This document shows positions 24,066 through 60,900 of a DNA stretch of 64,000 bases, one piece after another. The position numbers and the translations under genes were made by a program. The notes under the pieces are model-generated. The model had not been told where the DNA came from and made no database searches. It saw nothing but the letters and a program-made list of their open reading frames with translations. Every line of letters begins with the position of its first letter. Position 1 is the first letter of the stretch. Source of the DNA: Azolla caroliniana (Eukaryota > Plantae > Polypodiophyta); NCBI GenBank assembly GCA_043228905.1, contig JBHGNT010000013.1:17918001-17982000 (forward strand). The letters are read 5' to 3'.

Positions 24066-24650
24066 TTAGCAACAACTTTGTGTTGAGGTTTCATTCTAAA
24101 GTTTCATCCTAAGAAACTCCCAAACCCTAAACCTCCCAAAGGAAGGGTTGCCTCAATTCGTCATTTGCTTCCATGAGCTCCTCTATATGCTACCTTGTTA
24201 GCCCCATAAAGATGATCAAAAGCACATTCTTATCGATGCCCTAGGTTCCTTTGCACATAATTAATCGAGGTCTCTAAATTACTCATATTTTCCACATGAA
24301 CTAAATCTAGCAAAACATCTCCATGGCTGAGGAGATCCACTTTCACCAATTTGTTCATGTAAGATAAGACTCAATGCCAGTCATTCCACCATCGATTGCA
24401 TTCTATGCATCCAATGCACCCTATGCCATGCCAAGCATGGTTATGGTCGATATCTTCCGATACTATGGTCAACATCTGCCACCACTTGAAACTGACCACT
24501 TCTAGCATGACAACCCATGAAAGATTCCCAACTAGAGAGATAGAATAACCATGAATATCATGTCGATGAGCATAGTCCATACCCCCATTATGATTGTAAC
24601 AAACATTGTTTGTATGCGACTATGAAGGGGACTATGGTCGTGAAGAACGT

Positions 24651-25399
24651 TGTCGTGGTATTCTGCGAGCACGTGTAGGATCCGAGGCGGGACCATGGGG
24701 GTCTTGGACTAAGGAGTAGAGGAGAAGGAATAAGACACAAAATGGAAGCTTAGCTCAAGAGGAGAAGAGGAAGAATAGCACATAAACATAGAATATAATA
24801 GATGGAGGCAAGCTACACAACAAGTTATATTAAGATTCCACGAACGATTACAACAAAGACCGCATAGGCCACACCAAAACGATTACAAGAAAACTCTAAC
24901 CGAATAAGTAAACAAAGAAGCATAGAAACCCTAAAAGAAACCCAAGAAGAAAACCCTAGAAGAAATCCTAAAACCCCCAAAAGAACCCTCGACCTAAGTG
25001 GTATACCTCTCTCACTCAAAATAAGCAACCCCTTCACAAGTGACCCCTCACTCCCTTTTATAGTAGTAAGGGGTGAGCACATTACAAGAGGGAGTCAAAT
25101 CCCCTTTCCTTTAATGGGGAATATCTCCCTTGATCTTAAATCGGTGGGCCTTAACTCTCTCTCTCCTATCACATTCACTCTCAATGCCCACTACTCATTC
25201 TACTCTACAAAGTGCACATCACATTTATGCCTCTACGAACTTTGTGATACACCTTTAGCACCTTAGATTATTACCCTTCCCATTACATTTGTTTACTTAT
25301 TCTCATTACACAAATTTACAAGTGCATGTGCAATGTTGCACATCCCCATTTTATTTGTCCCTTCCGGTTTTCTCATCGTAGCCGGAAATCTTCACGACA
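24651..25399 (-). mobile_element. Solo LTR of the Trp-primed Ty3/gypsy family
   Basis: TGTCG...CGACA termini and a perfect 4-bp TSD ACGT (24647-24650, 25400-25403). Shares the U5 motif and the TGTCGTGAAGA start with elements B and D. Confidence 0.9.
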
Positions 25400-25949
25400 A
25401 CGTCTCCCTTAATGTGAGTCAAACTAGGATTATGACTAGGGTTGTTGGTACACAAGAGAGGCCTAAAACCGCTACATGACCGATGCATTCCAACCCATGG
25501 CTGGAACCTACATTTGAATGATGACCATCTCCTCCGGCTCATCACCTAATGGTCATAAAAGATGGCTCCCATGTGAACCGATCCAATAACAAGGACACAA
25601 CACAAAAGCATTGTGGAATATGGAAACCATCCAAAGCACAACCTCAAAAATGTCTCAAGGGGAAACGTGGAATTTGGCTTTCCAAAGATGTCTCGAGTGT
25701 GTAGCACCAGTAAAAAGAAAGAAAAACCCATGCTAACGACTACCAAAACAACACCTAGAGTATATTGGGCATATTGTGTTATGGGTTTAGTCCCAAACAA
25801 AATATTATTTGATCATCTTGTTGATAATAGAGGAGAGTCAGAGCTACGGGACGACCATTGAACTTCAGTTTTGTGTATTGTAATAAGACTTTGACCCTCA
25901 TGATTCAAAGGGCAATGTTGTGAGAAAGAATAGGAAAAACCTTTTGCGT

Positions 25950-29058: not shown

Positions 29059-29129
29059 TCTCTTTACCTTGGACCTTCACATAAAACAGCATTTTTGTAT
29101 CAAAAAGCTCTGGATGACTTACCATATGC

Positions 29130-30549: not shown

Positions 30550-30589
30550 CTTAATAGGAAATCCACAATAATTATTCAATATTGGTGGT

Positions 30590-31400: not shown

Positions 31401-31479
31401 GAAATATATTCCAAATTCTGCAATTCAGAACTTCAACGCAATGCAAGTACACACATGTTGAAGAAAATAGCTGAATGGG

Positions 31480-32470: not shown

Positions 32471-33667
32471 CCCAGATTCGGCACCCTTACATTCTTCTAA
32501 AATACACACAGGGTCCCCTATAATCTTTACTAATTGTTCTTGTGCAAGCGAGTCGGCCTCTTTATTGTCCACACGACTTACATGTTTTACTTGTACTTTA
32601 TTAAAAGACTTTATTAAGCTAAGTGCCTCCTTATAGAAGCCACGTAATCCATCACTTTGACATTTCCACATGCCGTGAATTTGTTTGACAATTAATAGTG
32701 AATCACCTTAGATGATTAATCTTTTGATTTCCCTAGCTTTACAAAGTCGCAAGGCAAAGCACAAGGTTGCATATTCCACTTCATTGTTGGTGTTGGCATT
32801 GGGAAGCGGAATCCCTTCAGCGTGTACCACTTGTCCATTAGGGATTCTTAATATAAAGCCTCCAACCGTCAAATTTGTTGCCTTTCGGTCATCCATAAAG
32901 GTTTTTTCCACATCACTTATGACTCTACTTATATAGTAAATAGGATGCATTAGCCTATTATGAGGATCTTGTTGCATGAGAATAGAGCCAATAGCATGAG
33001 AGCTAACACTACGATGTCGTGAAGAAAACCGTCCCTTGGCGCAATTGGTGAATAGCGCACATGAACCAGCCCTTCACGTGTGCGCGCTCTTAATGTATAT
33101 AATAGAGAATTAGGTACATAGAGATATCCTGGGTAGTTAGATTTGGTAGGTAGGAAGTAAATGAGGGAGACGGCTCCATTCTTGACACTATAAAGGAGAG
33201 GGAGACGCAGGGAGAAGGGATCGCGCATTAAGGAGGACGAAGTGCTGTCGGACCGGAACCGAACACTTCTCCTCTGTTCGTTCTCCATCGCTCTTCTCTG
33301 CAGGTTTTCGGGAGGCTCGCGCTGCTTCGAGGAACGCCCGTGTGCTTCCGGCAACACCTCCACCCTTTTCTCCTTTCGTGCGCAGACGAACAGGCATCGG
33401 CATCTGTTCGCCGGCCTGTTCGGTTGTAACCGCTCGTGTGCTTTGTTGTGTATTCTGTTACTCGTTAATATACAAACACTTGTGTCTCCCTATCTCTGTG
33501 TCCCTTCGCGTCTTTTGTGTTGACGGGCCGTGCCCCTGTGTTTCTTACTCATACGTGACAGGGCATCTCTCTCTTTCTCATTCCCCTTTTATCACCTACT
33601 CTTCGGTCCAAGACCCCGGTGGTCCCGCCTCGTTTCTCCACGCACGCGCGTAGTAACGCGACATATT

Positions 33668-33684
33668 TGGTGAACCCGACGTGA
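33668..33684 (+). promoter_or_regulatory. Primer binding site complementary to tRNA-Trp 3' end
   Basis: TGGTGAACCCGACGTGA is the reverse complement of TCACGTCGGGTTCACCA (plant tRNA-Trp 3' end, from memory). One-mismatch copies at 44771-44787 (+) and 57173-57189 (-). Confidence 0.85.
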
Positions 33685-33723
33685 GACAGGCGGCAGAGGA
33701 GCAGAAGATGAGGGGTTTGGATC

Positions 33724-36700
33724 TTGCAGAGGCCATGGCTTTCGGCCGTGGACCGGATAGTGAGCACGCGCGAGGGCATTGGCGCCCTTGACAGGGCTAT
33801 TGAGGCGATCAGCCGGTTCAGTGGAAAGGATGCCACGAGTTATTTGGCGTCCTACTGGGCGGAGATGTTGATGAGGGATATTCCGGAAGAGAGGCGTCTT
33901 GCCGGATTCCCTCGAGTGGCGATGCCGGGCATCCATGCGGAGGTGCTCGAGGTCCGGACCTGGGAGGAGTTTGAAGGACAGCTTCTGGAGAAATACGAGC
34001 TGGATGACGCGCTTCGACTTTCGAAGCGGAGCTTCATGGAGTGGGTGGAGTCCCCCAACAAAGGAAGAAATGCGTCGGTACTCCTCCGGGAGTTTGAGGA
34101 ACGCTTTGCATGCCTTTCGGCGCTCGATCGGACCGTTCTGGACACAAGTCGTGTCCTACTGTTTGTCAAATTGGTTGACGCATGGGATCGGTGGCAAGTT
34201 GGCTCCTTACTGGAAACCGAAGATGGGCTGACGGCCGACTGGGCCGCGGTAAAAAGAGTCTGCGGCCGTTTTGACAAACGGTGGGAGTGGGCTGATACAG
34301 AGGCGGCCGGGGCGGAACCTGTCGCAGCAAGGAAGCTCGAACCGATACCACAGGCGCGAAGGGAAGAGACCCGGGAGTGGCTCGAAACCGGTTCGGCTTC
34401 GACCGGCATGGTCAGAGGCTCGTCCGGGGGAACAGCTTTGGAGGAGTTGACACGAGCGGTAAAGGATCTCCAGATCGCCCAGGCTAGGAGAGAAGGCGGC
34501 GATCAGGCTTGTGACCGACGGCCTCCGGCAGGAAGTAGGTGCATGTGGTGCGACGAGGTCGGCCACATCCGGAAAGACTACGGGGAATTTATGGAGGCTT
34601 TGAGAAGCCGGGTAGTGTACCTATGGGAAGGTCGGGTGCACGCCAGCGATACCCGGAGGGCCCTGAACCGAAACGATGGGCGAGGAGGAATGAAAAGGCT
34701 GATGGAAGAGGCGGCAGCCCGGCACGTGGAGACCGTCCACTACTCAGCGTCAGCCGGTATTCGGGTCGGAGGCAGCGAGGCCCGGAACGAGAGCAAAGCC
34801 GAGTTCTGGCCGACGGTGCTGGAAGGCCTCGCCGGTGCCCGACTAAAGAGAGACGAGGCGGACCGCGCGGAGAAGCGAGTCCAGAAGGTAACTGGGTGGA
34901 GTGACCCGGTCGAAGAAAAGACGGGTTTCGTCGAAGCGGCTTGCCAGAACTACGAGGCTCTGGTTGAAGACAAACGGGTAGGTAAACCTAGAGGGGCCGG
35001 ATCTTCACAGAGATACGAAACCCAATTCGGGCCGAAACGGAACGAGGCCGGTGAGTCCAGTGCCCGAGATAACCACAAAAAGGGTGGCTACCGTTTTGGC
35101 ACGGAGATCGAAAGGACCACGGACCTACGAAAGGTCCTGGAAGAACGAATCCTCAACAACAAGGTGGAACTGTCGTTGCGGGAGGTGCTAGGGATCGCCA
35201 AGAAGGAGTTCCACGACTCCATTGTGGACTTGGTGAAGAGGAAGAGGCTGTCAACGGAGGCAGAACCGGGAAGGCCAGTGGAGGTGCGGACGGCGCACAT
35301 AGAGGACATGGCGTTGGAAGACGAGTGGGCGGAGAGCCACTACTCGAGGCCACACTGGGCCCGAGCAACCACGGAAACCTCGGTGAAGATCGGAGATGTT
35401 CAGGAACTGGTGGTGGTGCTGGTGGACCACGGTTCGGAAATAAACCTGATGTCCATGGACTTCTACAAGAAAGGGAAATGGCCGATCAACACTAAGCACG
35501 AGTGGAAGATACGGGCGCGGGGCCTGCCCAAACGTGCGAGTCAAGATTGACGACATCGAAATAGACCAGCACTTCTTTGTGCAGGAGACGTCCTCGCACC
35601 CGGTCATACTAGGAGAACCGTACATTACGACAGCGCGAATGGAGACCAAGGTGCTGGACAACGGGTCGGCTTACGCAAGGGTCAAGAGTCAGGACGGGCG
35701 TCATTCGGTCCAGTTCCTGACGGTGCGACCAAACCACGAGCGAAACCACGAGTCCCTCGGTGGCGAGAACCGATAGGATTTTTAGAGAGGGCTGCCAAGG
35801 CGTGGGGCCGCGACAGTCCGGACACTCCGGGAAAACCCCACATATGTACGATAGATGCGAAACCGAAGAAACCTTGTACCATAAGTAGGAAGTTTTGTTT
35901 CTCCGAAAATGGAGGGTGTACGATAGTCGGCGTTGTTGGCCGAGAAAAGACAAGGGCGGAAGAGCGACTTCGGGCGTGCAGAGTTCTTGGGCCCAGCGAG
36001 GAAATCTATGGAGCCGTGGAGGCGGTCTCCTTCGACGATACCTTGGGAATACTACGAGAAGTGGTCGGAGAGGGCCTTAAAGAGGACCGGATGATACCGG
36101 TTTGTTCAGAAGAAATGTACGAAGTCATCGCGGACTTCAGTTGAGGGCTCGAGTCGGATCGGACGGCCCGGGTTAACACGAAGTACAAGACTGTAGACCG
36201 GAAGGTAAGGCCAGTCGCGGCACCCTTACCGGAGGGCAGCGAGTTGCGAATCGAGGGGGTCGCGTCGGACCCCAGTTTACGAGATCCGGCCTGCATAGGG
36301 CACGCCTTCACCGACAGAACGCTACGGGAGCTCAAAATAGGTGGGGGCGGGTTCCTACTGCCGGCGGAAGAAGATCGGTTTCGGAGAATGCTCGGAAGGC
36401 ACGGGAAAGCCTTCGCATTCTCACCGGAAGAGATCGGGTGCGTAGACCCGACAGTCGTGAAGCCGATGGTGATATTCACGGTACCGCATGTACCATGGAA
36501 TCTAAAGCCAATTTCGGTACCGAGAGCTCACATCCCGGAGCTGATGGAGCTATTGAGGCAGAAAGTCGATATGGGCATCCTCGAACCGTCGAGTGCCCCG
36601 TACTCGAACCGGTGGTTTACCGCACCGAAGAAGAATGGGACGTTGCGCTTCATTCAAGACCTGCAATCGGTCAACAGAGTGACCATTCGGAACACAGGAA

Positions 36701-39260
36701 TTGGACCAACGATACACGAGTTCGCGGAGGCCTTCGCCGGAAGGTCGATCTACTCGGTCGGTGATCTGTACTCGGGGTACGATCAGTTCCAACTAGCCGT
36801 AGAGAGCAGAGACATTACGACGATGCGGACTCCTCTCGGCCTAGTGCGGATGTGCACCCCGCCACAAGGAGGGACGAACTCGGTGGCCCACATGGTGAAT
36901 GCAATGAACAAGGTGCTGAGGGATTGTATACCGGACATCGCCATGCCATTCTTGGACGACATCCCGATCAAGGGATGTCCGGTGGAGGAAAGGGACGAAA
37001 CGGTTGAACCGGACGGATGCCGGAAATTCGTGGCGACACACATTGACGACTGCGAGAGGGTGCTGCAGAGGCTAGAGGACGCGAGGCTCACCTTCTCCGG
37101 GGAGAAATCGGCCTTCGGGCAATCAGAGATCATGGTCGTCGGACATCTATGAGGGCCGTATGGCCGGAAACCGTCTCCGGCTAAGGTGGAAGCCATCTCC
37201 TCAATGAAGCCCGACTGTAACTCGGTCACGGAGGTACGGAGGTTTTTGGGAGCATGCGCGTTCTACCACATATGGATCCCGCATTACGCCCACATTGCCG
37301 AGCCGCTATACGGGTTGCTGAAAAAGGGGCGAAAATTCGAGTGGCGAGATGAGCATGCGGAGTCGGTCCGAAAGATGAAGGAGGCTCTTTCTGCAGCACC
37401 GGCACTCCGGAAGGCTGTCTACGAGAAAGGCACTCCCATCTACATAACAGTAGATACGAGTCCGACCGGGATTGGATGGGTTGTCAACCAAGAAGATGAG
37501 GACGACATTCGGTTCCCAATCCGGTTCAGCGCGAAGGTCCTCAGCGAGCGACAGTGAGGATACGCCCAGGTTAAACGCGAACTCTGGGGTATCGTTTCAA
37601 CGGTGAAGGCCAATAAAGACTATCTGATCGGGATAGAAGTGATTATCGAGACGGACTGCCTGCCGATTCTCGGCATGGTTTCCAGATGCGCAACCCCGGA
37701 CCTGGCGATGCTCAGGTGGATAGCGTACATCAAGTCCCTGGATCCGGAAATACGGCACATTTCCGGGAAAGACAATGCCATGGCCGACATGCTTTCGAGG
37801 GTGTGATTCAACGACGAGGGCGGCATGGTTTCGGAGGATGAGGAAGTCGGTGTGGACTTCTTCGAGGTGGCTTACGCAACAACCGAGGGAGGGAGCACTC
37901 CGGCGCTTAACGATTTCAACGTAAGCAAGTACGACGGGGAGTGGCTGCAGATTGGGGGATTCTTGAGGACGATGGGGCCGGACGCGTCATGGACAAAGGA
38001 CGAGGCCAACCGGATCCGGAAGAAAGCATACCGATTCTTTCTCCGGGACGGATACTTGTGGAAGCACCCGAAGAAGAGAAACGGCATCCCGCTCCGAGTA
38101 GTGGCGATGAAGGAGGAACAGGAGGAGTTGCTGAAGGCCTACCACGACAGCCCCTGGGCTGGACACCGTGGGACGTGGGCCATGTTTGAGAAACTAAAGG
38201 GGAAGTACTGGTGGCCGGGACTGTACCGGGACGTGCATCGGTTCGTGACAACTTGTAAGAGCTGTCAGATGCACTCCATAGTTCAAGATCGGGACGAGCT
38301 TCACCCCACTTACCCTCCGACCATCCACTTCAAATGGATGGTAGATTTGGTGACGATGTCGATGGGCGTAGGGCAGATGCGATATCTGGTGCTGGCCCGG
38401 GAGGACTTGACAAACCAGGTGGAAGGCCGAGCCCTATAGAACAAAACGACCGCGGCTGTGTGTCGGTTCCTGATCGAGGACGTGATATGCCGGTACGAGT
38501 GCGTCGGAAAGATCGTGGCTGACCGCAGGGAGTTGGACGCCGAAGAGGCCGAGGAGCTGTTCGACCGGTTAGGGGTCAAGCTCTCGCTCACCACAGCGTA
38601 CAATCCGGAGGCAAACGGGAAGGTAGAGCGCGGGCACGGGCCAATCGTCAAAGTGCTAGTCCGGGCATGCGGAGGCCAGGTCGGGAACTGGCCACAGCTG
38701 TTACCTTATGCCTTGTGGGCGGACCAGACAACGCACAGTTCGGTAACCGGGTTCATGCCGTCGGAGCTCATGTTCGGACAGAAGCCGATCATGCCGATGG
38801 AACGGACGATCTCCTCTTGGGCGACAGTAGATTGGAGGGACGAGGTGAGTTGGGAAGAACTACTAGCGGCACGTATACGGCAGCTCGAGCGGAGGCCAGA
38901 GGACGTGGAACGAGCGGCGGAGAGACTTCGAACGGCGAGGATGAAGAACAAAGCCCGGTTCGACCGAACGCACCAGCTACGACCGAAGAAAATCGAGGAA
39001 GGCGACTGAGTGCTAGTCTACGACAGTAGCCTCGACAACCAGCACCGAGCAACACGGAAGTTTGCGAAGCGGTGGTTCGGGCCTTATGTGGTAACGAGCG
39101 CCAACGACAACGGGACGTATCACCTGGCGGAACTCGACGATACGAGGATGGCGATGCCGGTAGTAGGGAAGCGGATCAAAGCGTTCAAGAAGCGCCACGA
39201 CGACGAACCGGATCTAAGAGGCCTCGACAACGAAGAAGAACAGTTCAAAACGGAGGGCGA
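33724..39260 (+). pseudogene. gag-pro and pol of element B
   Basis: Gag with CMWC..GH knuckle, PR LVDHGSEIN, RT DLYSGYDQ/FLDD, RNase H VDTS, INT H..PWAGHRG..C..C and YNPEANG. Stops are consistent with transitions from CGA/CAG/TGG; deletion near 35518. Confidence 0.92.
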
Positions 39261-43488: not shown

Positions 43489-43832
43489 TCATCTGTTCAT
43501 CAAGTGCTGCGCCTTGCAATGGCCCATCAAACACGTTGGCCGGAACTGGGTCCAAATCAAGCCGTCTTCTGGTCCTCCATTTGTTGTCGGGCTTGCCGAT
43601 GACGTTCCCTCGTTGTTTGTCGAAACTGTATCTTGAGCACCTCCGCGCGGATGCTCAATGTGACCACTCGGGGAAATCCAGACAACCGCCAACATCAGCA
43701 TTTCAGCCTTGCAGGCCTCCAGGTAGGTTGTGACATTCTTTCCATTAAATCGTCCTATCGTGCCAACTATCGTCTTAATGGCTCTGTTGAGCCCCCCTGA
43801 GCTCTCTCGAGCATTAACAAGGCGGTCCACGA
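43489..43832 (-). mobile_element. gag remnant of the Trp-primed family, interrupted by element C
   Basis: IVDRLVNARESSGGLNRAI...GRFNGKNVTTYLEACKAEMLM aligns to element B Gag (AVDRIVSTREGIGALDRAI...RFSGKDATSYL..AEMLM). Confidence 0.8.
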
Positions 43833-46800
43833 TGTCGTGAAGAATGTGATTCACGATATAAAAATGAGCTTAAATATTGTATTTAATAATATTTGAGAGA
43901 CTTGAACCCACATCCTTATATACGAACTACAATGTACATACCACTAGGCTAGGCTATTTATTTGTAAAAGTTTGTAAAATAAATGTCCTTCGTGATATAA
44001 GAATGAAGCTATATATTGTATTGAGTAAAATAGTGAGATTTGAACTCTCAACCTTGTATACCAAACACAAAGCATACACCACTAAGCTAGGTTAGTTATT
44101 TTAGAATGCATTTTCATCATTATACTTATCACATATCTATTTTCATACATAGCCATCATGCATCACATGCAATGCATGTGTGCCAAATGGTGATCATGCA
44201 TTACATGTAACTCATGCATTGCATGCATGCCATGCTCCCATACATTACCATATGCATGGCAACACTTATATAAAGAGGGGCAAGGAAACAAGAGGGAATA
44301 AAGAAGAGAGAATAAGAAAATAATACAATGAAGTAAAGAAGACTAGCTCATTGGGTGGAGAACCTCTCGTTTCGAAGTTGAGGTCGTGGGTTCAAATCAA
44401 GGGTCTGTAGAGAATGTGTTCAGTTTGCGATCAAGGATTGTAAAGTTGGTAAAATATTATATTTTTAATATACATCATGTTTATATCATATACTCTTGTT
44501 CCTTGAATCATATTTTGTCTCAATCTTCTTTCTAGAATCATACTTTGTCTCAATCTTCTTTCTTGAATCATACATTGTCTCTATCTTTTATCTATGCTCG
44601 TCTCTCTCTCTCACACAGACACACACACACATTACTCGTAACTCTTCTTCTTACTATCCTTAACCATTCTATCATCACCATACAAGCCTTATTAAAAGTT
44701 AAGTTTCTTCAACTCCCCTTCCTTAGTCCCCGCGACTTCGCCGCACGAACCACAACTACCCCGACACATTTGGTGAACCCAACGTGAAGGCGGCGACAAG
44801 GAGAAATGGAGGAGCAAATGAGGCTTATGTGTACAATGATGGAACGAGTGATGCGGGAACAAGGGATGATGGCAAGCATCGACAAAGCCGTCGACAATAT
44901 TCTCGCACGAGTAGGAATCTTCGAAGGTATGAATTTAACAAGATTTTTGAAGATTTACAAAGAGGAAATGCTTAAACGAGGTGTCGACGAAGCGGCAAAA
45001 ATTAATAGCTTTAGTCGAGTCGCTGCGATTGGGTTACAAGAAAGGATCCAGGAGCTACATAGGGAACATCAGACATGGGCGACTTTTGAAAGAGCATTGC
45101 TAAATGAATACAACCTCAACGATATGTCAAGGATGACAAGGAGAGCTTTCATGGATTGGGTAGAGTCTAATAAACATTTAAGTGTTTTGGAAGTATTAAA
45201 AGAGTTTTCTGAAAGATTTGAGCAATTAAATGTTAGAGATAGAAATATAATAGTGCCAGATAAAGTAATATTGTTTCTACAAGCTACTAATATTAAAGAC
45301 AGGAAGGACTTAGGAATGCTCTTAGAAGATCAGAATAGTCCAAGTGGACTTATTGAAGACTGGGAGGAGGTGAAAAGGGCGTGCGCCCATTTCTGCAAAA
45401 GAAAGTTATGGTTTATGGAGTTGTCCGATAGAAATGATGAAGAAACGGGGAACGAGTCGAGAGAAAAGAAAGTAGAAGAATCACTCTTACACGAATTGGT
45501 GAAAGGCATGAGAGACTTGTCGATCAAAGTGACGAAGCTAGAATCGGGATAAAGCTCGACTTCATCAAGGCATGGAGGTGGAATGGTCCGAAGGTGTATG
45601 TGGTGTGATAGTATCGACCACCAGAAGAAAGATTGTCAAGAGCATAGGGATGCTCTTAATCATAATAAAATCTACTATCAAGATGGCAAGATTCACTCGA
45701 TAGAGACTCGACAACCACTTCAACTCAACTTCGGGCGAGGAGGAATGAAAAAGCTAATGGAAGATGCCGAGAGAGAAACGACTCAAGCGATACAATCCGC
45801 GTAGAAGACTCATATGGTGGATCTAGCTTTTGGCAAGATGTGATGGATTATGCAAGAAAAGGGAAGGTTCGAGTGGATGAATTAAAAAGAGCGGGAGATA
45901 AAATATGAAACTTCACTGGATGAAATGATCCAATAGACGGCTATCAGCATTCGCCCAAGTGAATGCACAAGATGTGCTAGTGGAAGAGAAGCGGAAGAGA
46001 GTTGAGGAAGCTGATTTGACAAAGAGACATGAGACACGAGAACAGAAAAGAAGGGAGATGGAAAAGGGTGCTACTGAGCCGAAGGAAGCTGATAAAGTAA
46101 AAGGAAAGATAGGCCCATCTTTCAAGCTTGCCTCAGACATAGAAACAACGACGGATATAAAAAAGGTACTAGAAAGAAGAATATTAAATAGTAAGGTAGA
46201 ATTTACTTTAAGAGAAGTGTTGGGTATAGCAAAGAAAGAATTTCATGAAGTTATCATAGATATTATTAGAAGGAAGAGACAGGTGACAGAGGAAATTACG
46301 GGAGGGTGTGCAGCAACACTCCAAGATTTGTATGGTGGCACCATCAATGCTGCAAGTGTAAAAAACCAGAATGATGTTGGCGTCCATGAAGGGGATAGGA
46401 GTCACTATACAAGGGACCATTGGGCTCAAGCAACAACGGAGGCACCTGCAAAATATGGGGAGCAGCAAATTCCATGTATTGCTTTGATCGATCATGGATC
46501 TGAGATTAACATGATGTCATCAGAATTTTACGCTCGAGGATGGTGGCCGATCAACAAGAATCATGGGTGGAAAATAAGAGCTGCCATAGAGACTACGGAG
46601 GATCTATTTGGAGCATGTCCTAGTGTGAAGGTAACAATTGGTGATGTGTCGGTGAATCAAAATTTCTTTGTGCAAGATCGATCAACCTACCCCATCATCC
46701 TTGATTAGCCCTACATCACCGCAGTGAGGATGGAAACAAAGGTTATTGATGATGGTTCGGCTTTCGCGAGAATCAAGAGTTAAGATGGAAGAAAGACTGT

Positions 46801-49800
46801 CCAATTCTTAACTGTGAGGCCCAACCATGAAAGAAACAAAGAATGCTTGAGGGAACATCCAATTCAAGAGATGGATGAAGAGTTTTCCCAGGATTTTTAG
46901 ATAGGCCTTTTACAGGTAGGGGTTGTGATAGCCCAAACATAAAAGAAAACCCCATGAATAATAATGTAAATAAAGATATTCCTTGTACAATCTCATCTAA
47001 TGGTGCTACTTTTATACTAAAAGTAAATAACAATAAAATACAAAATGCTTTCGAGTACTTTAAGTGTTCTGGATTAATAGATGATGATGAAGAAATTCAG
47101 GATATGTTTGAAGAATTAAGTTTTGAAGATACAATAACTCATTTGGAAGCAATGGAAGAAGACAACGAAATCCAAGTTCCTGTCCATTCAATCAAGATGT
47201 ACGAGGTCATTGAAGAAGTTGCTCAAAAGGATCATAAAGCACATGTACTAACAAAGTACAAGACAGTGGAGAAGAAGGTTCGTCCTATTGCTATTCCACT
47301 TCCAGGGGATAGTGAAAAGGCAATCAAAGAAGCAACCATAGAGCCAATGGTTAGAGATCCACGAAAGGTGGGACAGGTGTTTACTCCGGAAACAATACAA
47401 GGGATGAAAATAGGAGGGGGTGTCTTCCTATTACCTTCTGAAGAAAAGTAATTCAGGGAGATGTTAAAAAGGCATGGAAAGGCGTTCACATTCCAACCTG
47501 AGGAAATAGGGCGTGTGGATCCAGAAATTGTAGAGCCCATGGTTATTTTCATTATTCCTCATATTCCATGGAACTTTAAGCCAATACCCATGCCTAGGGC
47601 TAGAATCCCTCAACTATTAGAACTTCTGAAAGAAAAGATAAGGATGGGTATCTTGGAACCATCGAACGCTCCTTACTCGAGTCGATGGTTCATTGTGTTA
47701 AAGAAAGATGGGCGACTCCGATTTATCCAAGATATGCAACCCGTGAATAAAGTAACAATCCGAAACTCGGGAGTAGGGCCAATTGTGGATGAGTTTGCTG
47801 AGATGTTTGCAAGAAGAGCTATATATTCAATGGGAGACCTTTATTCCGGGTATGATCAATTTCAAGTTGCTATCAAAAGTTGAGATATAACTTCTATCAA
47901 GACACCTATAGGGTTAGTACGGATGTGTACCTTGCCGCAAGGAGCGACCAACTCAGTGGCACATATGATGAATGGAATGAACAAGGTACTTCGTGATTTT
48001 ATTCCTCATATTACAATGCCTTTTTTAGATGATGTTCCGATTAAGGGATGCAAGGAGGAAGAGAAGAATGAGGAATTGGACGAAAGTGGTTGCCATCAAT
48101 TCATCACTGACCATATCAAGGATTGTGAGAAGGTACTATCAAGGATGGAAGAAGTGCACTTGACCTTATCAGGGGCGAAGTCAATATTTGGGGCAAACGA
48201 GATCTTAATAGTTGGTCATATGTGTGGCCCGTACGAGAGAAAGCCATCCCCAGCCAAGGTCAATGCAATTCAAAATATGCAAGAGGAATGTACATCCGTC
48301 TCAGAAGTACGAAGGTTTCTGGGGGTATGTGTTTTTTATTGTAAATGGATTCCGCATTATGCCCATTTATTCGAACCTTTATATAGACTCCTAAGAAAGG
48401 GAGAGACATTTGAATGGAGTGAAGAGCATTCAGAGGCAATGAAGAGATTGAAGTACTACTTAGCACAAGCTCCACCATTAAAGCAACCTAACTACACCCG
48501 ACCCATATATCTCACAGTAGACTCTAGTCCCATTGGAATTGGATGGGTGATAAGCCAACAAGATGGGGAAGAAAGGTATCCAATTCGATTCGGAGCAAAG
48601 GTTCTTAGTGGTCGACAAAGAAGATATGCACAGGTGAAAAGAGAGCTATGGGGGATAGTAACATCAGTAAAGATAAACAGAGATTACTTAATCAGTGTTG
48701 AAGTAATAATAGAAATAGATTGTTTGCCTATTCTTGGTATCATAGCTAATTGTGATATTCCAGATCAAGCCATGTTAAGATGGTGTATCTATATTAGATC
48801 AGTCAACCCTGAAGTTAGACATATCTCTGGGAATAAAAATGCAGTAGCAGATATGTTATCAAGAACAAGGTATAAGGAAGAGGAGATTCCAGACTCGGAC
48901 GATGAGGACAAAGAACAAACTGTCCTTGCCACAAGCATTACCCGAGGAGGGATGCAGTTTCTAGAAGAGGAGTATGAAGAAGAATTCAAGGAAATAGGGA
49001 AATACCTACAAACCCCTGAAAAGTACAAAGGTCGATCTGGAAAAGATTTCGCGCAGTTTCGCAAGAAAGCCCATAAGTTCTTCCTGCATGAAGGATATCT
49101 ATGGCGACATCCAAAGACCAAGACTGGAAACCCGCAAAGAGTAATAGGTTCTGAAGTGCAAAGAAAGGAGGTAATGAGAGAGTTGCATGACAAAGAATGG
49201 GCTGGTCATCGAGGAGTGTGGGCCACTTTCAGTAAGATTAAAGAACGGTTTTGGTGGCCTCGATACTATGAGGAAATAAAGAAGTATGTAGAAACTTGTC
49301 CCACTTGTCAATATTATTCAAATATAAATTTTTTTGATGAGTTAAACCCAACATACTCACCGGGGGTGCATTACAAGTGGATGATAGATTTGGTAACAAT
49401 GCCACTTGGAGTAGGACAAAAGAGATACTTGGTTCTTGCTAGAGAAGATCTAACAAATCAAGTGGAAGGTTGTTCATTGAGAACAAAAGGGACATTAGGA
49501 GTATGTCAATTCATCTTGGAGGACATTGTTTGTAGATATGGATGTATCGGGAAGATAGTGGCAGATAGGGGAGAACTCAATTCTGCGGAAGCTCAAGATT
49601 TTTTCGACGAAATAGGAATTCAATTTTCTTTGACAACGGTGTACAATCTAGAAGCTAATGGAAAGATAGAAAGGGGACATGGGCCAATAGTCAAAGCTTA
49701 GGCAAATGCACGTAGAGGACGGGTTAGTGATTGGCCAAAAATCTTACCCTATGCACTATGGGCTGATAGGACAACTCACAACACTGTTACTGGATATATG

Positions 49801-50340
49801 CCTGCAGAATTAATCACAGGACAGAAGCCAATAATGTCAATTGAAGAAAAGATACCTACATGGGCTGTGTTGCCTTGGGAATCAGAAATGAGTAGGGAAG
49901 ATTTACTTGCGGTTTGAATACGACAACTTCAATCAAGGATAGAAGACATAGAAAAAGCAGCTACTAGATTGAAAGAGGCAAGAATCAAGAATAAGGACAG
50001 ATTTGACAAGATGAAAAGAATATGACCTAGAAAGGTGCAAGAGGGAGATTGGATATTAGTATATGATAGTAGCCTAGATAATCAATACAGTACTATTCGA
50101 AAGTTTGCAAAAAGATGGTTTGGACCTTATAAAGTTAGGAAAATAACAGATAAAGCCACATATTTCCTCAATGAATTAGATGGGACAGAAATTCGTATCC
50201 CAGTTGCAGGAAAAAGGATTAAAATATTTAAAAGGAGGGAGTCATTAGAGCCCGAATTAGAATGGGAGGTTAACCCTTACGTGCTTCCGAGCACAAAAGG
50301 GGATGAACAATGTGTGAAGATTAACAAGATAAAGAGCTAG
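43833..50340 (+). mobile_element. Element C: AT-rich member of the Trp-primed Ty3/gypsy family, 3' LTR missing
   Basis: 5' LTR 43833-44766 (TGTCGTGAAGAA...CGACA), Trp PBS, and gag/PR(DHG)/RT(FLDD)/RH/INT collinear with element B. Several stops. Confidence 0.93.
44344..44398 (+). other. tRNA-like A-box/B-box cassette inside LTR of element C
   Basis: TAGCTCATTGG...AGGTCGTGGGTTCAAATC at tRNA spacing; stems imperfect, so not a functional tRNA gene. Two antisense copies at 43899-43951 and 44037-44089. Confidence 0.6.
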
Positions 50341-50441
50341 ATTTAGACAAGGTTCATCAAGCTAATTCCATTATAGGGCACGAAAGCCACAATGTGATTA
50401 CAACCGCGGCCATTTAGGCTGAACTAAAACACAACTCGAAG

Positions 50442-52112: not shown

Positions 52113-55100
52113 TGTCGCGTTGTTACGCACGTGCGTGGAGAAAGGCAAGACCACGGGGGTCTTGGACTAGGGAGTGACGGAGCGTAGGAAGTCTTACTTC
52201 ACCATTTCCGGGGCATCCCAGAAGCACACCGGAAGCAATCAAAGAGAGAGAGAGAGAGAGAGAGAGCGCTTGACACTAACTCATGCACACACATGCGCAC
52301 ACACACACACAGGCCAAACCGACTCACGCCCTTATGTACAGGAAACGCAGGAAGGGGGAAGCACTCGACACCAGCAAAGACGCGAATATACACAGACAGA
52401 CGCAAACGTATATATATATATAAGGGAGAATACATTCCCGGCGTCGAGCCGGACCAAGGTAGGTTATAGCAGTCGTCGGTTGCCAAGCCGCCAGTCGGGG
52501 AGCTCACGGGCTTGTCGCGCCGAGCGGGGTCTTGCGCAAGAGACGAGCTGAAGCAAACCCTAAGCGAACACGAAGGGGGTAGAAGAAGAAGAAGAAGAAG
52601 AAGAAATGTAGCTAACCCTAAATCTAACGGTATACCCTCTAACGCAAAATGGGCAACCATTTCACAAAGGCCGCTCCCTTCCTTTTATAGAACAAGGAGA
52701 GGGATGCGTTACAATGTGGGATAAATCCCGACTTACATGGGATCGTCTGTCCCGACTTGACTACTCTTCGGCGCCATAAAGGCGCCCTCGTTATTCACAC
52801 TAAATGTACAAGTGTGAGCACACACGTTACACCCCGTCGATGTAGCCAATGTTTCCCAGTTTCCGCCTCTGGCCGAAATTCTTCACGACATCCGCCCCCA
52901 CCTAACTACACGTCCACCGGTACGTGCCAAATCTGGTTGAAGGGTGAGAGATTTCGGCCGGTGAGAAACCGGTCTTCCGTGATCCGCATCCCGGCTCACT
53001 GCCGGCTTGATCCGTCGGCTTCGATTCTTCCTTCGCGCTTACCTCCCCGTAGGCTCGTTCGACCCGTCGATGGGTCCTCTGCCGCGATCTCCGTAGTACG
53101 CGTACTTCCGTTGGCCCTTGTTCGGCCGTATGAACGCCCGCTCCCCGCCGTATGCCCGATGTCCTTCGCTCGAGGAAAGCCCGTAGCGGCCCGCTTGGCC
53201 TCCATTGATCATTCATGTTGTCCTGATTGCCGTCCCATGCTACTTTGCGTTGCCTTCATCCTCTCGCCGCCACCTTCCTTCCCCATGCTCTTTACATCGC
53301 CGCGTCGGCTCAAACCTCCATGGTGTCCGGACGGTGTGGAGGATGCTTTCTGACCTTCTACGCGCTACCTCTGAACCGCACAACCTATCTCCGCGCTCGC
53401 CTTTCCGCTCCGGCACCTCCGCGTGCCACATACCCTCGTCCGTTGTTTGGCTCTGCCTGTGCCGTACTCCGGTTCATTGCACGCCTTGTCGACCCCTTTC
53501 CCGGCCAGATCGTGCATTGCCGCTCACCCGCATACCGGTGTCCTCCGCATCCGAGGAACACCCCGTAGTAGCCTGCTTGGCCCTTCCCGTCTTCGTGTTG
53601 TTGCAACAGGTCCCGAGTCTTCCGCTTGTCGTCGTTCCCTCGCCCCACCAGCTTGTCACCCCGGCTTGCCGTGTCAGTCTTCGCTACTTCGATGGAGCTA
53701 CCGAGATCTATGAAGCAAGTGTGGAGGATCCTCCTCCGGCCTCTTTTGCCATCCCCTGACTCCGACCCTGTGCAGTCCACCAGGCACTCGTCACCTCCTT
53801 CCCGGCACCTCCCTTGTGCCGTCTTCCGCTTCCTTTGTTCGGCACCGCCCGTGCCGAACCACTGTCCCGTAGTCACGCTTCGATCCGGCCCGCGATGGCC
53901 ACTTGCGAGACTCTTGTTCCGTCCCAGGTGTGCCTTTCCGGCCCGACACACCTCCTCGTGTTTGCCCCTACCGGCTCCTTCCGAAACCTCGTGTCGTCGG
54001 ATCCCGTTCCCTGCCGACACCAACCTTCTCTCTCGGTCTCACGTTGCCACGTTGGCCGAACTGCCAAAGTCTCCGGATCGGTGTGAGGGTCCCATAGGAC
54101 CGGACTCCGTTTCCATGCTTGCCGAAATTCGAGTGTCTTTTGTTTGAGTCCCTCCCGGACTCTCCTCGTGTCTTCCGCGTAGTCGGGTCCCGTTTCCCGC
54201 CGCCACCAACCTTCTCTCTCGGTCTCACGTTGCCACGTTGGCCGAACTGCCAGAGTCTCCGGATTGGTGTGAGGGTGCCATAGGACCGGACTCCGTTTCC
54301 ATGCTTGCCGAAATTCGGGTGTCTTTTGTTTGAGTCCCTCCCGGACTCTCCTCGTGTCTTCCGCGTAGTCGGGTCTCGTTTCCCGCCGCCACCAACCTTC
54401 TCTCTCGGTCTCATGTTGCCACGTTGGCCGAACTGCCGGAGTCTCTGGTTAAGTGTGGGGATCCCGTAGGACCGGACTTCCTTACGCTCACTGACCTTGC
54501 CGGAAGGTCCGATTTGGTTCGTGGCCGCCTCGCCAGCCTGATACCTCCTTGCCGTTCGTCACCTCTGTCATCCGATCACGTTCTCCTGCCACCACCGATC
54601 TTCCCTATGGGACTCACGCCGGCTCTCGGGTCGACCGCCGGATCGGTGTGAGGATCTTCGTGGGACCTCGGTTTGCCCGCCTTGCCGCCACCACCGTTCT
54701 TCACTCTAGGTCTCACGTCGACTCTCGGGCCGATCGCCAGAGTCTCCAGAACCATTGTGTGTAAGGTCGCTGCAGCACCGCTCGCCGCCTGGTCACGTTC
54801 ACCTGCCGCCACCGTCCCTTCCTATAGGACTCACGCCGGCTCTCGGGCCGACCGCCGGATCGGTGTGAGGATCTTCATAGACCGCCCATCCGTAGCCCTT
54901 GCCTTCGTCCCCTCGCTACCACCGTCAGTATCTTGGTCTTACGTCGACCGTGTTGCCGACTGCCGAAGTCTCTAGATCCGATGTGAAGGATCCTCCTTGG
55001 GCCTCTGATTTGTCTTCCTGACCCTATCCCGGGCCGTCCTTTTCCGCATGTCGAGAGGGCGGTTTTCTCCGCACCCTCTCCCATGGTACCGACGTACCGT

Positions 55101-57320
55101 GTCCTCGGCCTCTTCGTAGGCCTGCTCTCTTCCTCCCTCCCGGAATGGTCATCCAGGAGTCCGCTCCGCCCGGTTCTCGTCCGGGTCCGTTCGTCATTCT
55201 CCGGATTGCCGGGTCCCGTTTTCCTGTCGCCACCAACCTCTCCTATAGGACTCACGCCGGCACTCGGGCCGACCGCCAGATTGGTGCGAAGATCTCATGG
55301 GACCGGTCTTGGTTCCCTTCATCCCTTGTACTTCTCCCGAACTCGTCATTTCTCTCCTCTCCGCGTTCTCGCCTCCATCCTCCATCTCTTTCGGTCTCAC
55401 GTTGCCTCTTTGGCCGAACTGCCGAAGTCTCCGGATAGGACGCGGGGTAACCGATTTTGCAACGTCCTTCGGCGACTCGTCCGGACCACCGCCCCTTTTA
55501 GTGGTGTCGGTGGATAGCATCTGCTCTATGATCAATCAAGCCCCGCCTGAGCTTGATTCTCCAATGTCCGGAGTTTCGGCTCCGATGCCGACCTTGCCAG
55601 ACTTGTTCCGAACCTTTGATCACCTTCCTTTCCAAATCCCGACCTTCGCCTGGTTGGTCTTTCTCCCCATGTAAAAGAGGGCGGCTCGTCCCGCACCCCC
55701 TTCCGTATCGGCACTTTCATGCCGAATCCGGCCCCGATCGAACGATCCACGACCGGATTCTGCTCCATCCGCATCGGAAAGCCCATCTCCTCGTGCCACG
55801 TCCGTCCTCGGCCTCCTCACCGGCCGTTTCCCATCCATGTTCGCTGGCATCATGCCAGGACTCCTCGGTACTACCATCCATCTCCTCGGTCTTACATGGG
55901 CATACGGGCCCGAATGCCGAGTTCTCCGGAATCGGGTCCGTGGGCTTTCATCCGCTCCTTCCCCATATCGTCTCACCGGTGATTCTTGGTCTTTCGCCGC
56001 CACCTTCCTCCGCTTGGGACTCACGTGGGCACTTGGGCCCGACTGCCATCGTCTCGGGAGCAAGTGTGGGAAGACACAAAGAATCGCCCGTCCCTTTTAC
56101 GCCCTTGTCTGTAGCCACCGACTCTTCGTGGTCGGCGGTTGTCTTCTTACCGATCGCGCAAGCCCCGCCTGGGCTTGTTTCTCCGATTCCCGGGGTTTCG
56201 GGCTGACACGCCTGAAACCGCTGGTCCCAATTATCCGGTTCCGCGATCTGTATCTCGGCCTCGTCCTTGGCCGTTCTATCTCCACAAGCCGAGAGGGCGT
56301 TTTGTTCCGCACCCTCTCCCGTGGTACCGTGGTACCGATCTTCCGTCGTCGCGTGGGGCAAGTCCGTCTCCTCAGTCTCGGCTTGTGGCCTCGATCTTTC
56401 CTCTTCCTCGAGCATCGCCTCGAGAGCTACGTACGCCTCCGCAATCCGGGCCTCAACGCCGATCCTTGCCAACTCCCTTTGTCATCCGGCCTCTTCCTGC
56501 TGTGATGGCACGCCGTCGCACCCCTTCCTCTTAGCCTTCTCGGCTCGCTCATCATCTAGTCGTTGGCAGACCCTTCCGACCTTCGACCAATCCTCCGTAA
56601 GCCCATTCGCTCCGTCATCGTCTTCGAGCTCAATCTCGATGGCCTCCCGTTCCGCTCAGTCGATCGACCTGATGAACAATAGGACCTTGTCCGCCCCCAC
56701 CAAACCTTGTTCCCGCTCTGGGAGCCGAGCAAGCCGTCGCTCAAACTCTCTGAACGCCTTGGTCGCGCCCCGGTGGGTCTTTGCCGATGCTACCCACTGG
56801 TCGAAGTCATGTCGACCCCGGCTCTTCCGCCGTCCTCCGTATGCCTTCAGGAGCGCCTCTTCGAAGGCCTCCCACGAACTATGAGCCTCATGGAGCTCCT
56901 TTACTTCCGCATGCATCCGGACATCTACGACCCGACAGAAGAACCCCAGCCTCAACGCCTCGTCTACGCCACGCTCCTCCATTTCCGCGTTGTAGGCTTC
57001 CAAGTAAGATGGGACTTTGTCCCCGTTGAAACGGCCGACTCTTTCGACCACTCGCTCAATTGCTTGTTGCGCTACTTCTCACCTCATCACCACTCGTGCC
57101 GACTCCAACACCACTTCGGCCACCATCGCCGCGAGGTCATCGTCTTCCGACTCCATCCTCCCTTGCCGCCTTTCACGTTGGGTTCACCAAAGATGTCGCG
57201 TTGTTATGCGCGTGCGTGGAGAAAGGTGGGACCACGGGGGTCTTGGACTAGGGAGTGACGGAGCGTAGGAAGTCGTACTTCACCGTTTCCGGGGCATCCC
57301 AGAAGCACACCGGAAGCAAT

Positions 57321-57364
<44 letters not shown>

Positions 57365-57971
57365 TTGACACTAACTCACACACACACACACACACACAGG
57401 CCAACCCGACTCACGCCCTTATGTACAGGAAACGCAGGAAGGGGGAAGCACACGACACCAGCAAAGACACGAATATACACAGACAGACGCAAACGTATAT
57501 ATATATAAAAGGGAGAATACATTCCCGGCGTTGAGCCGGACCAAGGTAGGTTACAGCAGTTGTCGGTTGCCAAGCCGCCGGTCGGGGAGCTTACGGGCTT
57601 GTCGCGCCAAGCGGGGTCTTGCGCAGGAGACGAGCTGAAGCAAACCCTAAGCGAACACGAAGGGGGTAGAAGAAGAAGAAGAAGAAATGTAGCTAACCCT
57701 AAATCTAACGGTATACCCTCTAACGCAAAATGGGCAACCATTTCACAAAGGCCGCTCCCTTCCTTTTATAGAACAAGGAGAGGGATGCGTTACAATGTGG
57801 GATAAATCCCGACTTACATGGGATCGTCTGTCCCGACTTGACTACTCTTCGGCGCCATAAAGGCGCCCTCGTTATTCACACTAAATGTACAAGGGTGAGC
57901 ACACACACTACACCCCATCGATGTAGCCAATGTTTCCCGGTTTTCGCCTCTGGCCGAAATTCTTCACGACA
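52113..57971 (-). mobile_element. Element D: non-autonomous Gag-only LTR element of the Trp-primed family
   Basis: LTRs at 57971-57194 and 52890-52113 (778 bp, roughly 3% diverged by eye), Trp PBS, and PPT GTTAGGTGGGGGCGGA like element B. Gag is homologous to B and C; no PR/RT/INT motifs recognised. Removing the element plus 4 bp restores the host gag frame (SRPV/TRDGPTPMEIE). Confidence 0.9.
54021..54480. repeat. 186-bp tandem repeat (about 2.5 copies) inside element D
   Basis: CAACCTTCTCTCTCGGTCTCA at 54021, 54207 and 54393; degenerate relatives extend to ~56050. Confidence 0.92.
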
Positions 57972-60900
57972 TCGTTACAAGGGATGGCCCAACTCCGATG
58001 GAAATAGAGACAACACAACGTCGAGGGCCTTTATCTGATGCTAAGAAACAACGACGTCGAGTGCATCGTCTATGTCTATATTGCGGTGGTCCAGGACATA
58101 TCGTCGTGAATTTCCCACATAAACCTAGACGTCAAGTATACCAAGTAAGTGCACAAGATATTCCTACTTCGAGCTCCATTGTTACTTCTAATAACGTCAA
58201 CAAGCCTAATAGTCCATGCCATGAGAATAGATTCAATGTATTGAGTCAATTAGAGGATGTGTTAAACGATTAAGTCCGGCCAAAATAGGAGCCATTTGGT
58301 TGACCATCCTAGATATGTAGAGTTAGTCCCTAGTCGTGGTTCCATTTTATCAAGTCAAGTGAGTAGAGTTTTTTCTGCGCAAGTTGAGCTTACCACATCT
58401 ACATGTCATCGAGTCCTAGCCCTCCTAGATTCTGGAGCCAACTCTTGTTTCATGGATCGTGACTTTGCATTGTCACAAAACATCCTCTTGAATAAGCTCC
58501 CGCACCTAGTAGCCGTAGGAGTCATTGATGGCATCAGGTGATATAGTCGAGGAGTCCGAGCCAATTCGTATAGTTCTTGGCAATTTGGCAAGCATAATCT
58601 CTTTCAACATCATTCGTAGTCCAGAACACCCAATAATTCTAGGTCTCCCTTGGTTTGAACTCCATAACCCGAAGATTGATTGGATGAAAAGAATAATTGA
58701 GGAGACCCAAGAAGAAAGAACAAAGGTCACATCCCTCAAATCTCCAACATTTGATCCTAGACCCCATAAGTTATCTACCATCTCTCTATGCCAATTACGT
58801 GAGGAAGGGGGGACTGAGGATATGTTTTTCTTTGCAATAGTGGCAACTCCGTCATCCACCTTACATGAAGGGGACATTCAACTACCAGATAAATACAAAG
58901 AGTTTTCAGATGTCTTTGATAAGGTGAAGGCCAATACATTGCCGAAGCATCGGCCATACAACTACCCTATTGACTTGCAACCGGGGAAAGAACCTCCATG
59001 GGGCCCAATTTATAATCTTTCCCCTGTATATCGAGGAGAATATATCGAGGAGAATCTCACAAATGGATTCATTCGACATTCTAGATCCCCTACTAGTGCA
59101 CCTATCTTCTTCGTTAAGAAAAAGAATGGGTCTCTTAGGTTGGTCGTGGATTATCGAGGGCTAAACAAAGTGACCATCCGGAATCGATATGCTTTACCGT
59201 TAATCCCGAATCTTTTGGAACATCTTAGTGGAGCAAAATATTTCACAAAGTTGGACCTTCGTGGTGCATATAATCTAGTTCAGATTCGTCCGAGGGATGA
59301 ATGGAAGACTGCTTTTCGCACTCGCTATCGACATTTTGAGTATACTGTGATGCCATTCGGTCTCACGAATGCACCTACAATTTTCCAGCATATGGCGAAT
59401 GATATTTTTCGAGATTTTCTCGATATCTTCACTATAGTTTACCGAGATGACATTTTGATCTATTCGAAGACCCAAGAGGAACATGATGAACATGTTCGTC
59501 AGGTACTACGTCGGCTACGAGAATATGGTCTTTATGCAAAATTAGAAAAGTGTAGTTTCGGCCAAAATCAAGTGGAATTTTTGGGGTACGTTGTATCCTC
59601 AAATGGTATTTCTATGGACCCCATGAAGGTTCAAGCAATTCTAGAGTGGCAGACTCCCCTTTCAGTTATAGGAAATTTATTAAAAATTATTCTAAGGTCG
59701 TGCTTCCGCTCACTCAACTCACACACAAAAATCAACCATTCATTTGGAGTTTGGATGCAGCCGAGGCATTTGAAAGTTTAAAGCAGGCATTTACAACGGC
59801 CCCGATCTTAGCGCATGTCAACCCAACAAAACGCTTCATCCTTGAAGCTGATGCATCCGATTTTGCACTAGGAAGTGTCTTGTCGCAAACTGGAGATGAC
59901 GGAGAGCTACATCCTGTCGCCTTTCATTCCCGAAAGTTTGAAACTGCAGAGATCAACTACGAGATCCATGACAAAGAACTTCTTGCAATCATGGACTCTT
60001 TTCTACAATGGCGACATTTTCTAGAAGGCTCTTCTTAGCGGATCATTGTCTACAATGATCATAATAACTTGACATATTTCCAAAATGCTCGAGTCCTGAG
60101 TCGGCGACAAGCCCAGTGGGCACAATTTTTGACTCACTTTGACTTTGTAATCATATATCGCCCTGGGATGCAGCAAGGTAAAGCAAATGCGCTTTCTCGA
60201 CGCTCTTATATGGAACTTCGTCCAGGGGAACCTGCATTTGAGCATCAAAAACAAATCCTTTTGGGTCCTAATCGCCTACGATTAATGGTAGTTAATGCCA
60301 TAACAACACTTGAAGATTCCACTCTTCTTGATTCCATTCGAGATCATATGGCCACTAATGAATTTTCCGAGGAGGTTTTGGATCATATTGTCCCAAATCG
60401 TGCTTCTAGTTCGCAGTCGAAAAACCCTCAGCAGGACTATCGTTTGTTCTATTGGCATGGTGGTTTTCTATTTCGACAAATCCTATTGTATGTTCCTGAT
60501 GGTCCCCCAAGACTACAAGTTCTACAACATTGCCATGACTCACCAATGGCTGGACATTTTGGATTTCGCAAAACTCTAGAATTAGTTTCTCGACAATATT
60601 GGTGGCCTCGTCTTCGTCGTTTTGTTGAGTATGTTCGCAACTGTGATTCCTGTTGTCGATCAAAGAGTCCTCGCCACCGATCCTATGGCTTACTACAACC
60701 ACTTCCCATTCCGGAAAATCCTTGGAATTCTATATCCTTGGATTTCATTACCGATCTCCCAGTTTCAAAAGTTTATGATGCAATTCTCACAGTGGTTGAT
60801 CGACTTACCAAAATGGCACATTTCGTGCCATGTACGAAGTCTATTACTAGTCAAGAGGTGGTCGATCTAGTTATGTGGGAGGTATTTAAGCACCATGGTC

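What the first reader, a model, noticed from the sequence alone, without database searches (positions are those of the whole stretch)
24647..57975. A tRNA-Trp-primed Ty3/gypsy family that appears to integrate specifically into CpG-centred 4-bp sites
Seen: four independent insertions with TGTCG...CGACA termini. The solo LTR has TSD ACGT/ACGT (24647, 25400) and element B has ACGA/ACGA (33011, 40005). Element C has left flank ACGA (43829; right end lost). Element D has CTGT/TCGT (52109, 57972), most simply CCGT with one C>T in each copy. The 4-bp length is confirmed because excising B or D plus 4 bp restores the host reading frame. Known: most plant LTR elements make 5-bp TSDs with weak sequence preference. 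Inference: the integrase prefers a palindromic ACGT-like site. CpG is visibly scarce in the non-TE DNA here, so 4 of 4 is unlikely by chance. Three of the four landed in coding regions of other retroelements and the fourth apparently in an older LTR. Targeting CpG, possibly methylated CpG, could steer the family into TE or heterochromatic DNA without a chromodomain.
Basis: partly seen in the sequence, partly recalled or inferred. Interest (0 to 1): 0.85.

Follow-up and report, generated by a model that had tools for sequence, protein, structure and literature searches.

The report
Phygy-like fern retrotransposons inserting at CpG
These jumping genes, in what is likely a fern genome, sit at four-base sites with CG in the middle; the pattern is real, but it is the already published signature of the moss Phygy lineage, to which they likely belong, so the news is only a wider host range.

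Summary
All four sites are NCGN, and a fifth, truncated LTR also has an NCGN flank. The 4-bp length is confirmed by host reading frames and by uninterrupted host copies. In metagenome relatives found by a pattern that excludes the target site, 19 of 21 scoreable 5' flanks are NCGN against about 4% background.

But it is known. Neumann et al. 2019 list Phygy of Physcomitrella as 4-bp TSD (100%, NCGN), tRNA-Trp primed (81%), with no extra domain. The elements meet these features; placement on a tree against Phygy itself could not be run.

Corrections: the motif is NCGN, not a palindromic ACGT. The copies are several families of one lineage, not one family. No LTR was shown at the solo LTR's site. 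Methyl-CpG targeting is untested, and CpG density alone would bias insertions toward young transposons. The host looks like a fern; I found no paper on fern Phygy. My three look-ups in the scan's notes showed no earlier report of this.

The parts
24647..24650 (.). TSD of solo LTR A, left copy ACGT
24651..25399 (-). Solo LTR A, 749 bp
   Evidence: 72% to LTR of L045 over part of its length
25400..25403 (.). TSD of A, right copy ACGT
33011..33014 (.). TSD of B, left copy ACGA, in the RNase H region of a Tat-like gypsy element on the minus strand (second, archaeal-type RNase H follows)
33015..33663 (+). Element B 5' LTR, 649 bp
   Evidence: 98.3% to 3' LTR, K2P 0.017
33668..33684 (+). B primer binding site, tRNA-Trp type
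   Evidence: complement equals a CCA-ending plant small RNA and matches a mouse tRNA-Trp 3' fragment at 16 of 17
33712..39355 (+). B gag (DUF4100), protease, RT, RNase H, integrase; interrupted by stops and a frameshift; no chromodomain; pol reads up to the 3' LTR; PPT at about 39339-39355
39356..40004 (+). Element B 3' LTR
40005..40008 (.). TSD of B, right copy ACGA
43829..43832 (.). Left flank of C, ACGA, inside the gag of an older element of the same lineage on the minus strand
43833..44766 (+). Element C 5' LTR, 934 bp; PBS at 44771-44787
44788..50316 (+). C gag-pol, broken, 3' LTR lost; 90% protein identity to P0001
52109..52112 (.). TSD of D, left copy CTGT (inferred CCGT), in the gag of a chromovirus-like gypsy element
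52113..57971 (-). Element D, non-autonomous: LTRs 57194-57971 and 52113-52890 (K2P 0.032), PBS 57173-57189, gag remnant about 56545-57078, no pol found
57972..57975 (.). TSD of D, right copy TCGT (inferred CCGT)
61403..61925 (-). LTR fragment E, related to A (71-78% over two blocks), 3' part lost; left limit approximate
61926..61929 (.). Flank of E, ACGC on plus (GCGT on element strand), inside the pol of an older element of the same lineage

Best explanation
These are chromodomain-less Ty3/gypsy LTR retrotransposons with a tRNA-Trp-type primer site and 4-bp NCGN target duplications, likely fern members of the Phygy lineage, whose integrase likely selects the central CG by reading the DNA sequence itself. 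Shown: structure, primer site, 4-bp stagger, CG at positions 2-3 in 5 of 5 window sites (one by reconstruction) and 19 of 21 metagenome flanks. Inferred: the integrase dimer cuts with a 4-bp stagger and bends the target at a flexible pyrimidine-purine step, as 4-bp retroviral integrases do; extra base contacts would narrow that step to CG, since TA, CA and TG are equally pyrimidine-purine but are not used. Nesting in other transposons would follow largely from where CpGs are dense and from survival of harmless insertions, with no need to read methylation.
For: Phygy is defined with 4-bp NCGN TSD in 100% of 186 elements, tRNA-Trp PBS in 81%, no extra domain (PMC6317226 passages and supplement 5). 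Window elements: same PBS, no chromodomain or second RNase H in B, C or three relatives, coding region filling the interior. 19 of 21 NCGN in relatives, background 4.2%, binomial p 1.4e-24; control TGTCG sites 56 of 595. Relatives at 50-66% protein identity in the liverwort Riccia and the fern Adiantum, grouped with B on an RT tree at 89/85 support. Phygy-into-Tcn1 nesting is published (PMC6911290 passages) and matches D and 3 of 20 metagenome flanks. Central YR preference for 4-bp integrases: PMC4422553 abstract and section 6. CGCG targeting by the ZAM subgroup in Drosophila (PMC5408687 passages), a fly with almost no CpG methylation (recalled). CpG per 100 bp: 1.4-1.9 outside the nest, 3.5-4.5 in the chromovirus-like host, 8.6-8.8 in B and D.
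Against: No Physcomitrella Phygy sequence was available, so membership rests on features, not on a tree; the clade holding B is not fully supported (89/85) and the outgroups are long branches. B is 6,990 bp, below the Phygy range of 7,656-9,968. TatI also has 4-bp TSD and tRNA-Trp, though with an archaeal RNase H that B and C lack. B landed in a CpG-poor host (1.4-1.6 per 100 bp), and at least 4 of 5 window sites are in transposons, which also fits a chromatin or methylation cue. Only 21 of 122 metagenome hits were scoreable, and most come from one accession series, so they are probably not independent hosts.
Confidence: 0.75

Rival explanations
1. The integrase prefers methylated CpG, so the target motif itself steers the lineage into silenced transposon DNA in place of a chromodomain.
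For: At least 4 of 5 window sites and 6 of 20 metagenome flanks lie in recognisable transposon coding DNA. CpG sites in the LTR pairs mutate 5-6 times faster than other sites (6/102 vs 5/544 in B, 12/116 vs 12/633 in D), so this DNA is methylated. Phygy is enriched in liverwort centromeres (PMC12885004 passage). An effect of CpG methylation on retroviral integration in vitro is cited by title only (Kitamura 1992, in the reference list; the paper was not held).
Against: No methylation data for any target before insertion. Flanks include CpG-rich, undecayed DNA (o/e at or above 0.9 in 8 of 20). CpG density alone biases toward young transposons, and the window was chosen in a transposon nest. CG-centred targeting exists in Drosophila.
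Confidence: 0.13
2. The elements form a sister lineage of Phygy, not Phygy proper, that shares or independently gained NCGN targeting and the tRNA-Trp primer.
Against: All four testable defining features match together; Phygy is already reported outside mosses, in a liverwort, and liverwort proteins are among the closest named hits.
Confidence: 0.1
3. The CG pattern is an ascertainment or boundary artefact (5-bp TSD or longer LTR termini misread).
For: D's two copies differ at 2 of 4 bases; C and E have one flank only.
Against: Frames and empty-site relatives fix the length at four. Where a PPT precedes the LTR (9 loci) the bases are GGA, not NCGN, so the CG is not part of the LTR. All 21 flanks differ further out.
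Confidence: 0.02

Closest known systems
Phygy, non-chromovirus Ty3/gypsy of Physcomitrella patens (Neumann et al. 2019, PMC6317226; passages and supplementary file 5 read)
   Same: 4-bp TSD with NCGN, tRNA-Trp PBS, no chromodomain, no archaeal RNase H, short with coding region filling the interior; nests in Tcn1 (PMC6911290 passages)
   Different: Host is fern-like rather than moss; B is 7.0 kb against 7.7-10.0 kb; the lineage was described as species-specific; sequence placement not tested
TatI (same paper)
   Same: 4-bp TSD (100% of 4) and tRNA-Trp PBS (75%)
   Different: TatI carries an archaeal RNase H, which B, C and three relatives lack; no NCGN preference reported
Selgy of Selaginella (same paper)
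   Same: Short non-chromovirus, 4-bp TSD (96%)
   Different: tRNA-Ala PBS (90%), about 5 kb, no NCGN preference reported
Drosophila ZAM/tirant subgroup (PMC5408687, passages)
   Same: Gypsy integrase with a sequence-specific 4-bp target containing CG (CGCG)
   Different: Insect errantiviruses; CGCG has GC, not CG, as its central step; relationship not tested here
Retroviral integrases with 4-bp TSD: PFV, MoMLV (PMC4422553, abstract and section 6)
   Same: 4-bp stagger and pyrimidine-purine step at the centre; T disfavoured at the first and A at the last position, as (1 of 21 each)
   Different: Their preference is weak (63% above random) and covers all YR steps; here it is near-absolute for CG

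Membership tests
Phygy | 4-bp TSD | tested here: met
   A and B perfect, D by empty-site relative
Phygy | NCGN target motif | tested here: met
   5 of 5 window sites (D reconstructed); 19 of 21 metagenome flanks
Phygy | tRNA-Trp primer binding site | tested here: met
   B, C, D; identity; no tRNA gene of the host was available to pair it with
Phygy | No chromodomain and no archaeal RNase H | tested here: met
   Pfam scans of four B and four C ORFs and of P0001, P0020, P0039; the same scans did find Chromo and RVT_3 in neighbouring elements; integrase tails
Phygy | Short element, polyprotein filling the interior, 7.7-10.0 kb | tested here: inconclusive
   Interior is filled, but B is 6,990 bp
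Phygy | RT/RH/INT phylogeny inside the Phygy clade | not testable with these tools
   REXdb fasta too large to read; no named Physcomitrium hit; tree shows only grouping with Riccia and Adiantum elements
TatI | Archaeal RNase H in the polyprotein | tested here: not met
Selgy | tRNA-Ala PBS | tested here: not met
Chromovirus (Tcn1 etc.) | Chromodomain after integrase; 5-bp TSD | tested here: not met

The most novel reading that the evidence does not exclude
Phygy is not a moss oddity but an old lineage across mosses, liverworts and ferns whose integrase reads methylated CpG directly, using the DNA mark as a chromodomain-free route into silenced transposon DNA.
Probability: 0.12. Interest if true: 0.7.

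Novelty: new member of a known kind. Interest (0 to 1): 0.22.

Why it matters
As it stands it extends a published, little-studied trait from one moss to a likely fern and to several distinct families, and shows that the preference is close to absolute. That makes this integrase a good model for how a gypsy integrase reads a target sequence. It also matters for annotation: 4-bp TSDs that decay at the CpG are easy to miss. If the integrase proved sensitive to 5mC it would be a new targeting route, but nothing here shows that.

Tried and rejected
No whole genome is held, so the genome-wide logo could not be made. The LTR-end plus PBS pattern found 0 matches in viral contigs. Laying public contigs on B's LTR start gave only two readable foreign flanks (ATGT, CCGT) and several contigs aligning across the four bases; this is biased because flanks that resemble ACGA align more easily, so I did not count it. 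No RNA holder listed; not used as evidence. A search for 3' LTR ends in the loci gave 4 candidates: 1 NCGN (L079, exact end match), 1 other with a close end match (L011, followed by TCTTTGG, possibly a damaged PBS), 2 weak matches. Of 122 PBS hits, 60 were too near a contig start, 32 had no TGTCGTG start, 9 were PPT-preceded and 21 were scored; L013 was dropped as a duplicate of L012. Relaxing the start rule on the 32 added three apparent NCGN flanks (L027, L052, L074) and one PPT case, and no clear counter-example, but most stayed unplaced. The one 'other' flank, L002, is an opposite-strand LTR end followed by a PBS-like sequence, so probably a miscall; I left it in the count. Naming the primer tRNA through viral tRNA genes failed; Rfam found nothing in the window. 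The Atlas look-up with P0001 gave clusters without taxa for the top hits. Cluster members gave no organism names. GingerRoot (PMC6839031, passages) is unrelated: 6-bp TSD. PMC7466625 (passages) has no TSD data. Reading E's flank as a PPT was rejected because pol-like coding similarity runs to about 20 bases from the junction.

Full report
Observation. A is a 749-bp solo LTR on the minus strand. B is a 6,990-bp element with 649-bp LTRs (K2P 0.017). C has a 934-bp 5' LTR and gag-pol but no 3' LTR. D is a non-autonomous element on the minus strand (K2P 0.032) with a gag remnant and no pol. A fifth LTR fragment, E, ends at 61925 with flank ACGC. Its flank is pol of an older element of the same lineage, and C likewise sits in the gag of such an element.

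The 4-bp length is firm. Host frames continue across B and D when one copy of four bases is skipped. Other copies of B's host show four bases, AAGA, at the site. An uninterrupted relative of D's host, L050, shows four bases, CCAT, which together with CTGT and TCGT points to CCGT at insertion. CpG sites in the LTR pairs mutate 5-6 times faster than other sites, which makes such decay plausible. By local CG frequency, four of four has probability 8.6e-7, or 1.7e-5 without D.

Independent test. With a fixed rule for the LTR start, 21 of 122 hits were scoreable: 19 NCGN, 1 ATGG (decayed CpG), 1 other that is probably a miscall. Background CG was 4.2%; unrelated TGTCG sites had CG at that place in 56 of 595. 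Many of these LTRs resemble B, C or A at 65-79%. The outer positions are loose and only 3 of 21 are ACGT. Most loci share one accession series, so they may come from few hosts, and these are single flanks, not TSD pairs.

What it is. B and C encode gag (DUF4100), protease, RT, RNase H and integrase, without chromodomain or archaeal RNase H. B, C and D share a PBS whose complement matches the tRNA-Trp 3' end. The LTRs share little beyond their ends and B and C pol are 65% identical in DNA, so this is a lineage of several families. The closest named relatives are in Riccia (up to 57% over the whole query) and Adiantum (up to 66-69% over part of it). On an RT tree of 32 rows they group with B and with C's relative P0001 (89/85), apart from a more distant group and the two in-window outgroups, whose branches are long. 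A host polygalacturonase exon is closest to Ceratopteris and Adiantum among named single-domain hits (62-65%, against 60% or less elsewhere), so the host is likely a fern.

Known comparison. Neumann et al. [quoted passage not shown] Their supplementary table gives 186 elements, 4-bp TSD 100% (NCGN), tRNA-Trp 81%, no extra domain, 7.7-10.0 kb. Jedlicka et al. 2019 report 4-bp TSDs for Phygy and Phygy nested in Tcn1 (PMC6911290, passages). Phygy is also reported in a liverwort (PMC12885004, passages). So the finding is that trait. Four defining features are met, size is slightly below range, and tree placement could not be tested because the REXdb file and the per-element table were too large to read. 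A whole-word search for 'Phygy' gave 18 papers; none has a fern in its title and I read passages of three. Two further searches combining fern terms gave nothing relevant in their listings. The library lacks most subscription papers and I did not search fern genome supplements, so fern Phygy may be in print.

Mechanism. Shown: 4-bp stagger and near-absolute central CG. From the literature: integrases with 4-bp TSDs favour a flexible pyrimidine-purine step at the centre, largely independent of chromatin (PMC4422553, abstract and section 6). Inferred: this integrase bends the target in the same way and adds base contacts that exclude TA, CA and TG. Nesting needs no extra cue, because CpG density is two to six times higher in the younger transposons than outside the nest and insertions there are harmless. 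Against that, B hit a CpG-poor host, and at least four of five window sites are in transposons. Methyl-CpG reading remains open: flanks span CpG o/e 0.10-1.43 and 6 of 20 match transposon coding DNA from the window, which does not decide it.

Verdict. Real, well supported, and a new member of a known kind. Interest 0.22. The one open question of value is whether the CG must be methylated (probability about 0.12).

Noticed in passing
window 33011-33014 and 52109-52112: At both sites where an uninterrupted host copy could be read, the relative lacks the CpG (AAGA at B in three runs; CCAT at D in L050), so B hit a CpG that seems private to this host copy or its subfamily.
   Followed up: partly
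window 33664-33684: The complement of the PBS is identical to the widespread plant small RNA filed as miR894, which one paper maps to gypsy repeats; it looks like a tRNA-Trp 3' fragment that could act on this lineage.
   Followed up: no
window 33015-40004, 52113-57971 versus 43833-50350: B and D are 52-62% GC with CpG o/e about 1.1, while C is about 40% GC with o/e 0.6, although C's close relative P0001 has an intact pol; base composition differs strongly between families of one lineage.
   Followed up: no
window 120-3161, 13315-15350, 27033-28904, 31600-32523: A cluster of intronless PLS-type PPR genes and fragments with a 306-bp repeat unit.
   Followed up: no
window 19368-21540 (minus): Polygalacturonase (GH28) gene, used here only to place the host.
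   Followed up: partly
window 53990-55440: D's interior holds 186-bp tandem repeats and other short repeats; related non-autonomous interiors occur in L020, L043, L061, L070 (72-78%).
   Followed up: partly
L002 397-1180: A 756-bp stretch with an LTR end and PBS-like sequence on both sides facing outward, the left PBS a variant; two head-to-head elements or an assembly chimera.
   Followed up: no
L004, L012, L026, L034, L040, L066, L070, L080: LTRs preceded by a PPT and followed by a PBS: tandem elements sharing an LTR, or collapsed assemblies.
   Followed up: no
window 29665-30549 and 62829-63929: A LINE-type zf-RVT fragment, and a chromodomain-bearing gypsy integrase on the minus strand.
   Followed up: no
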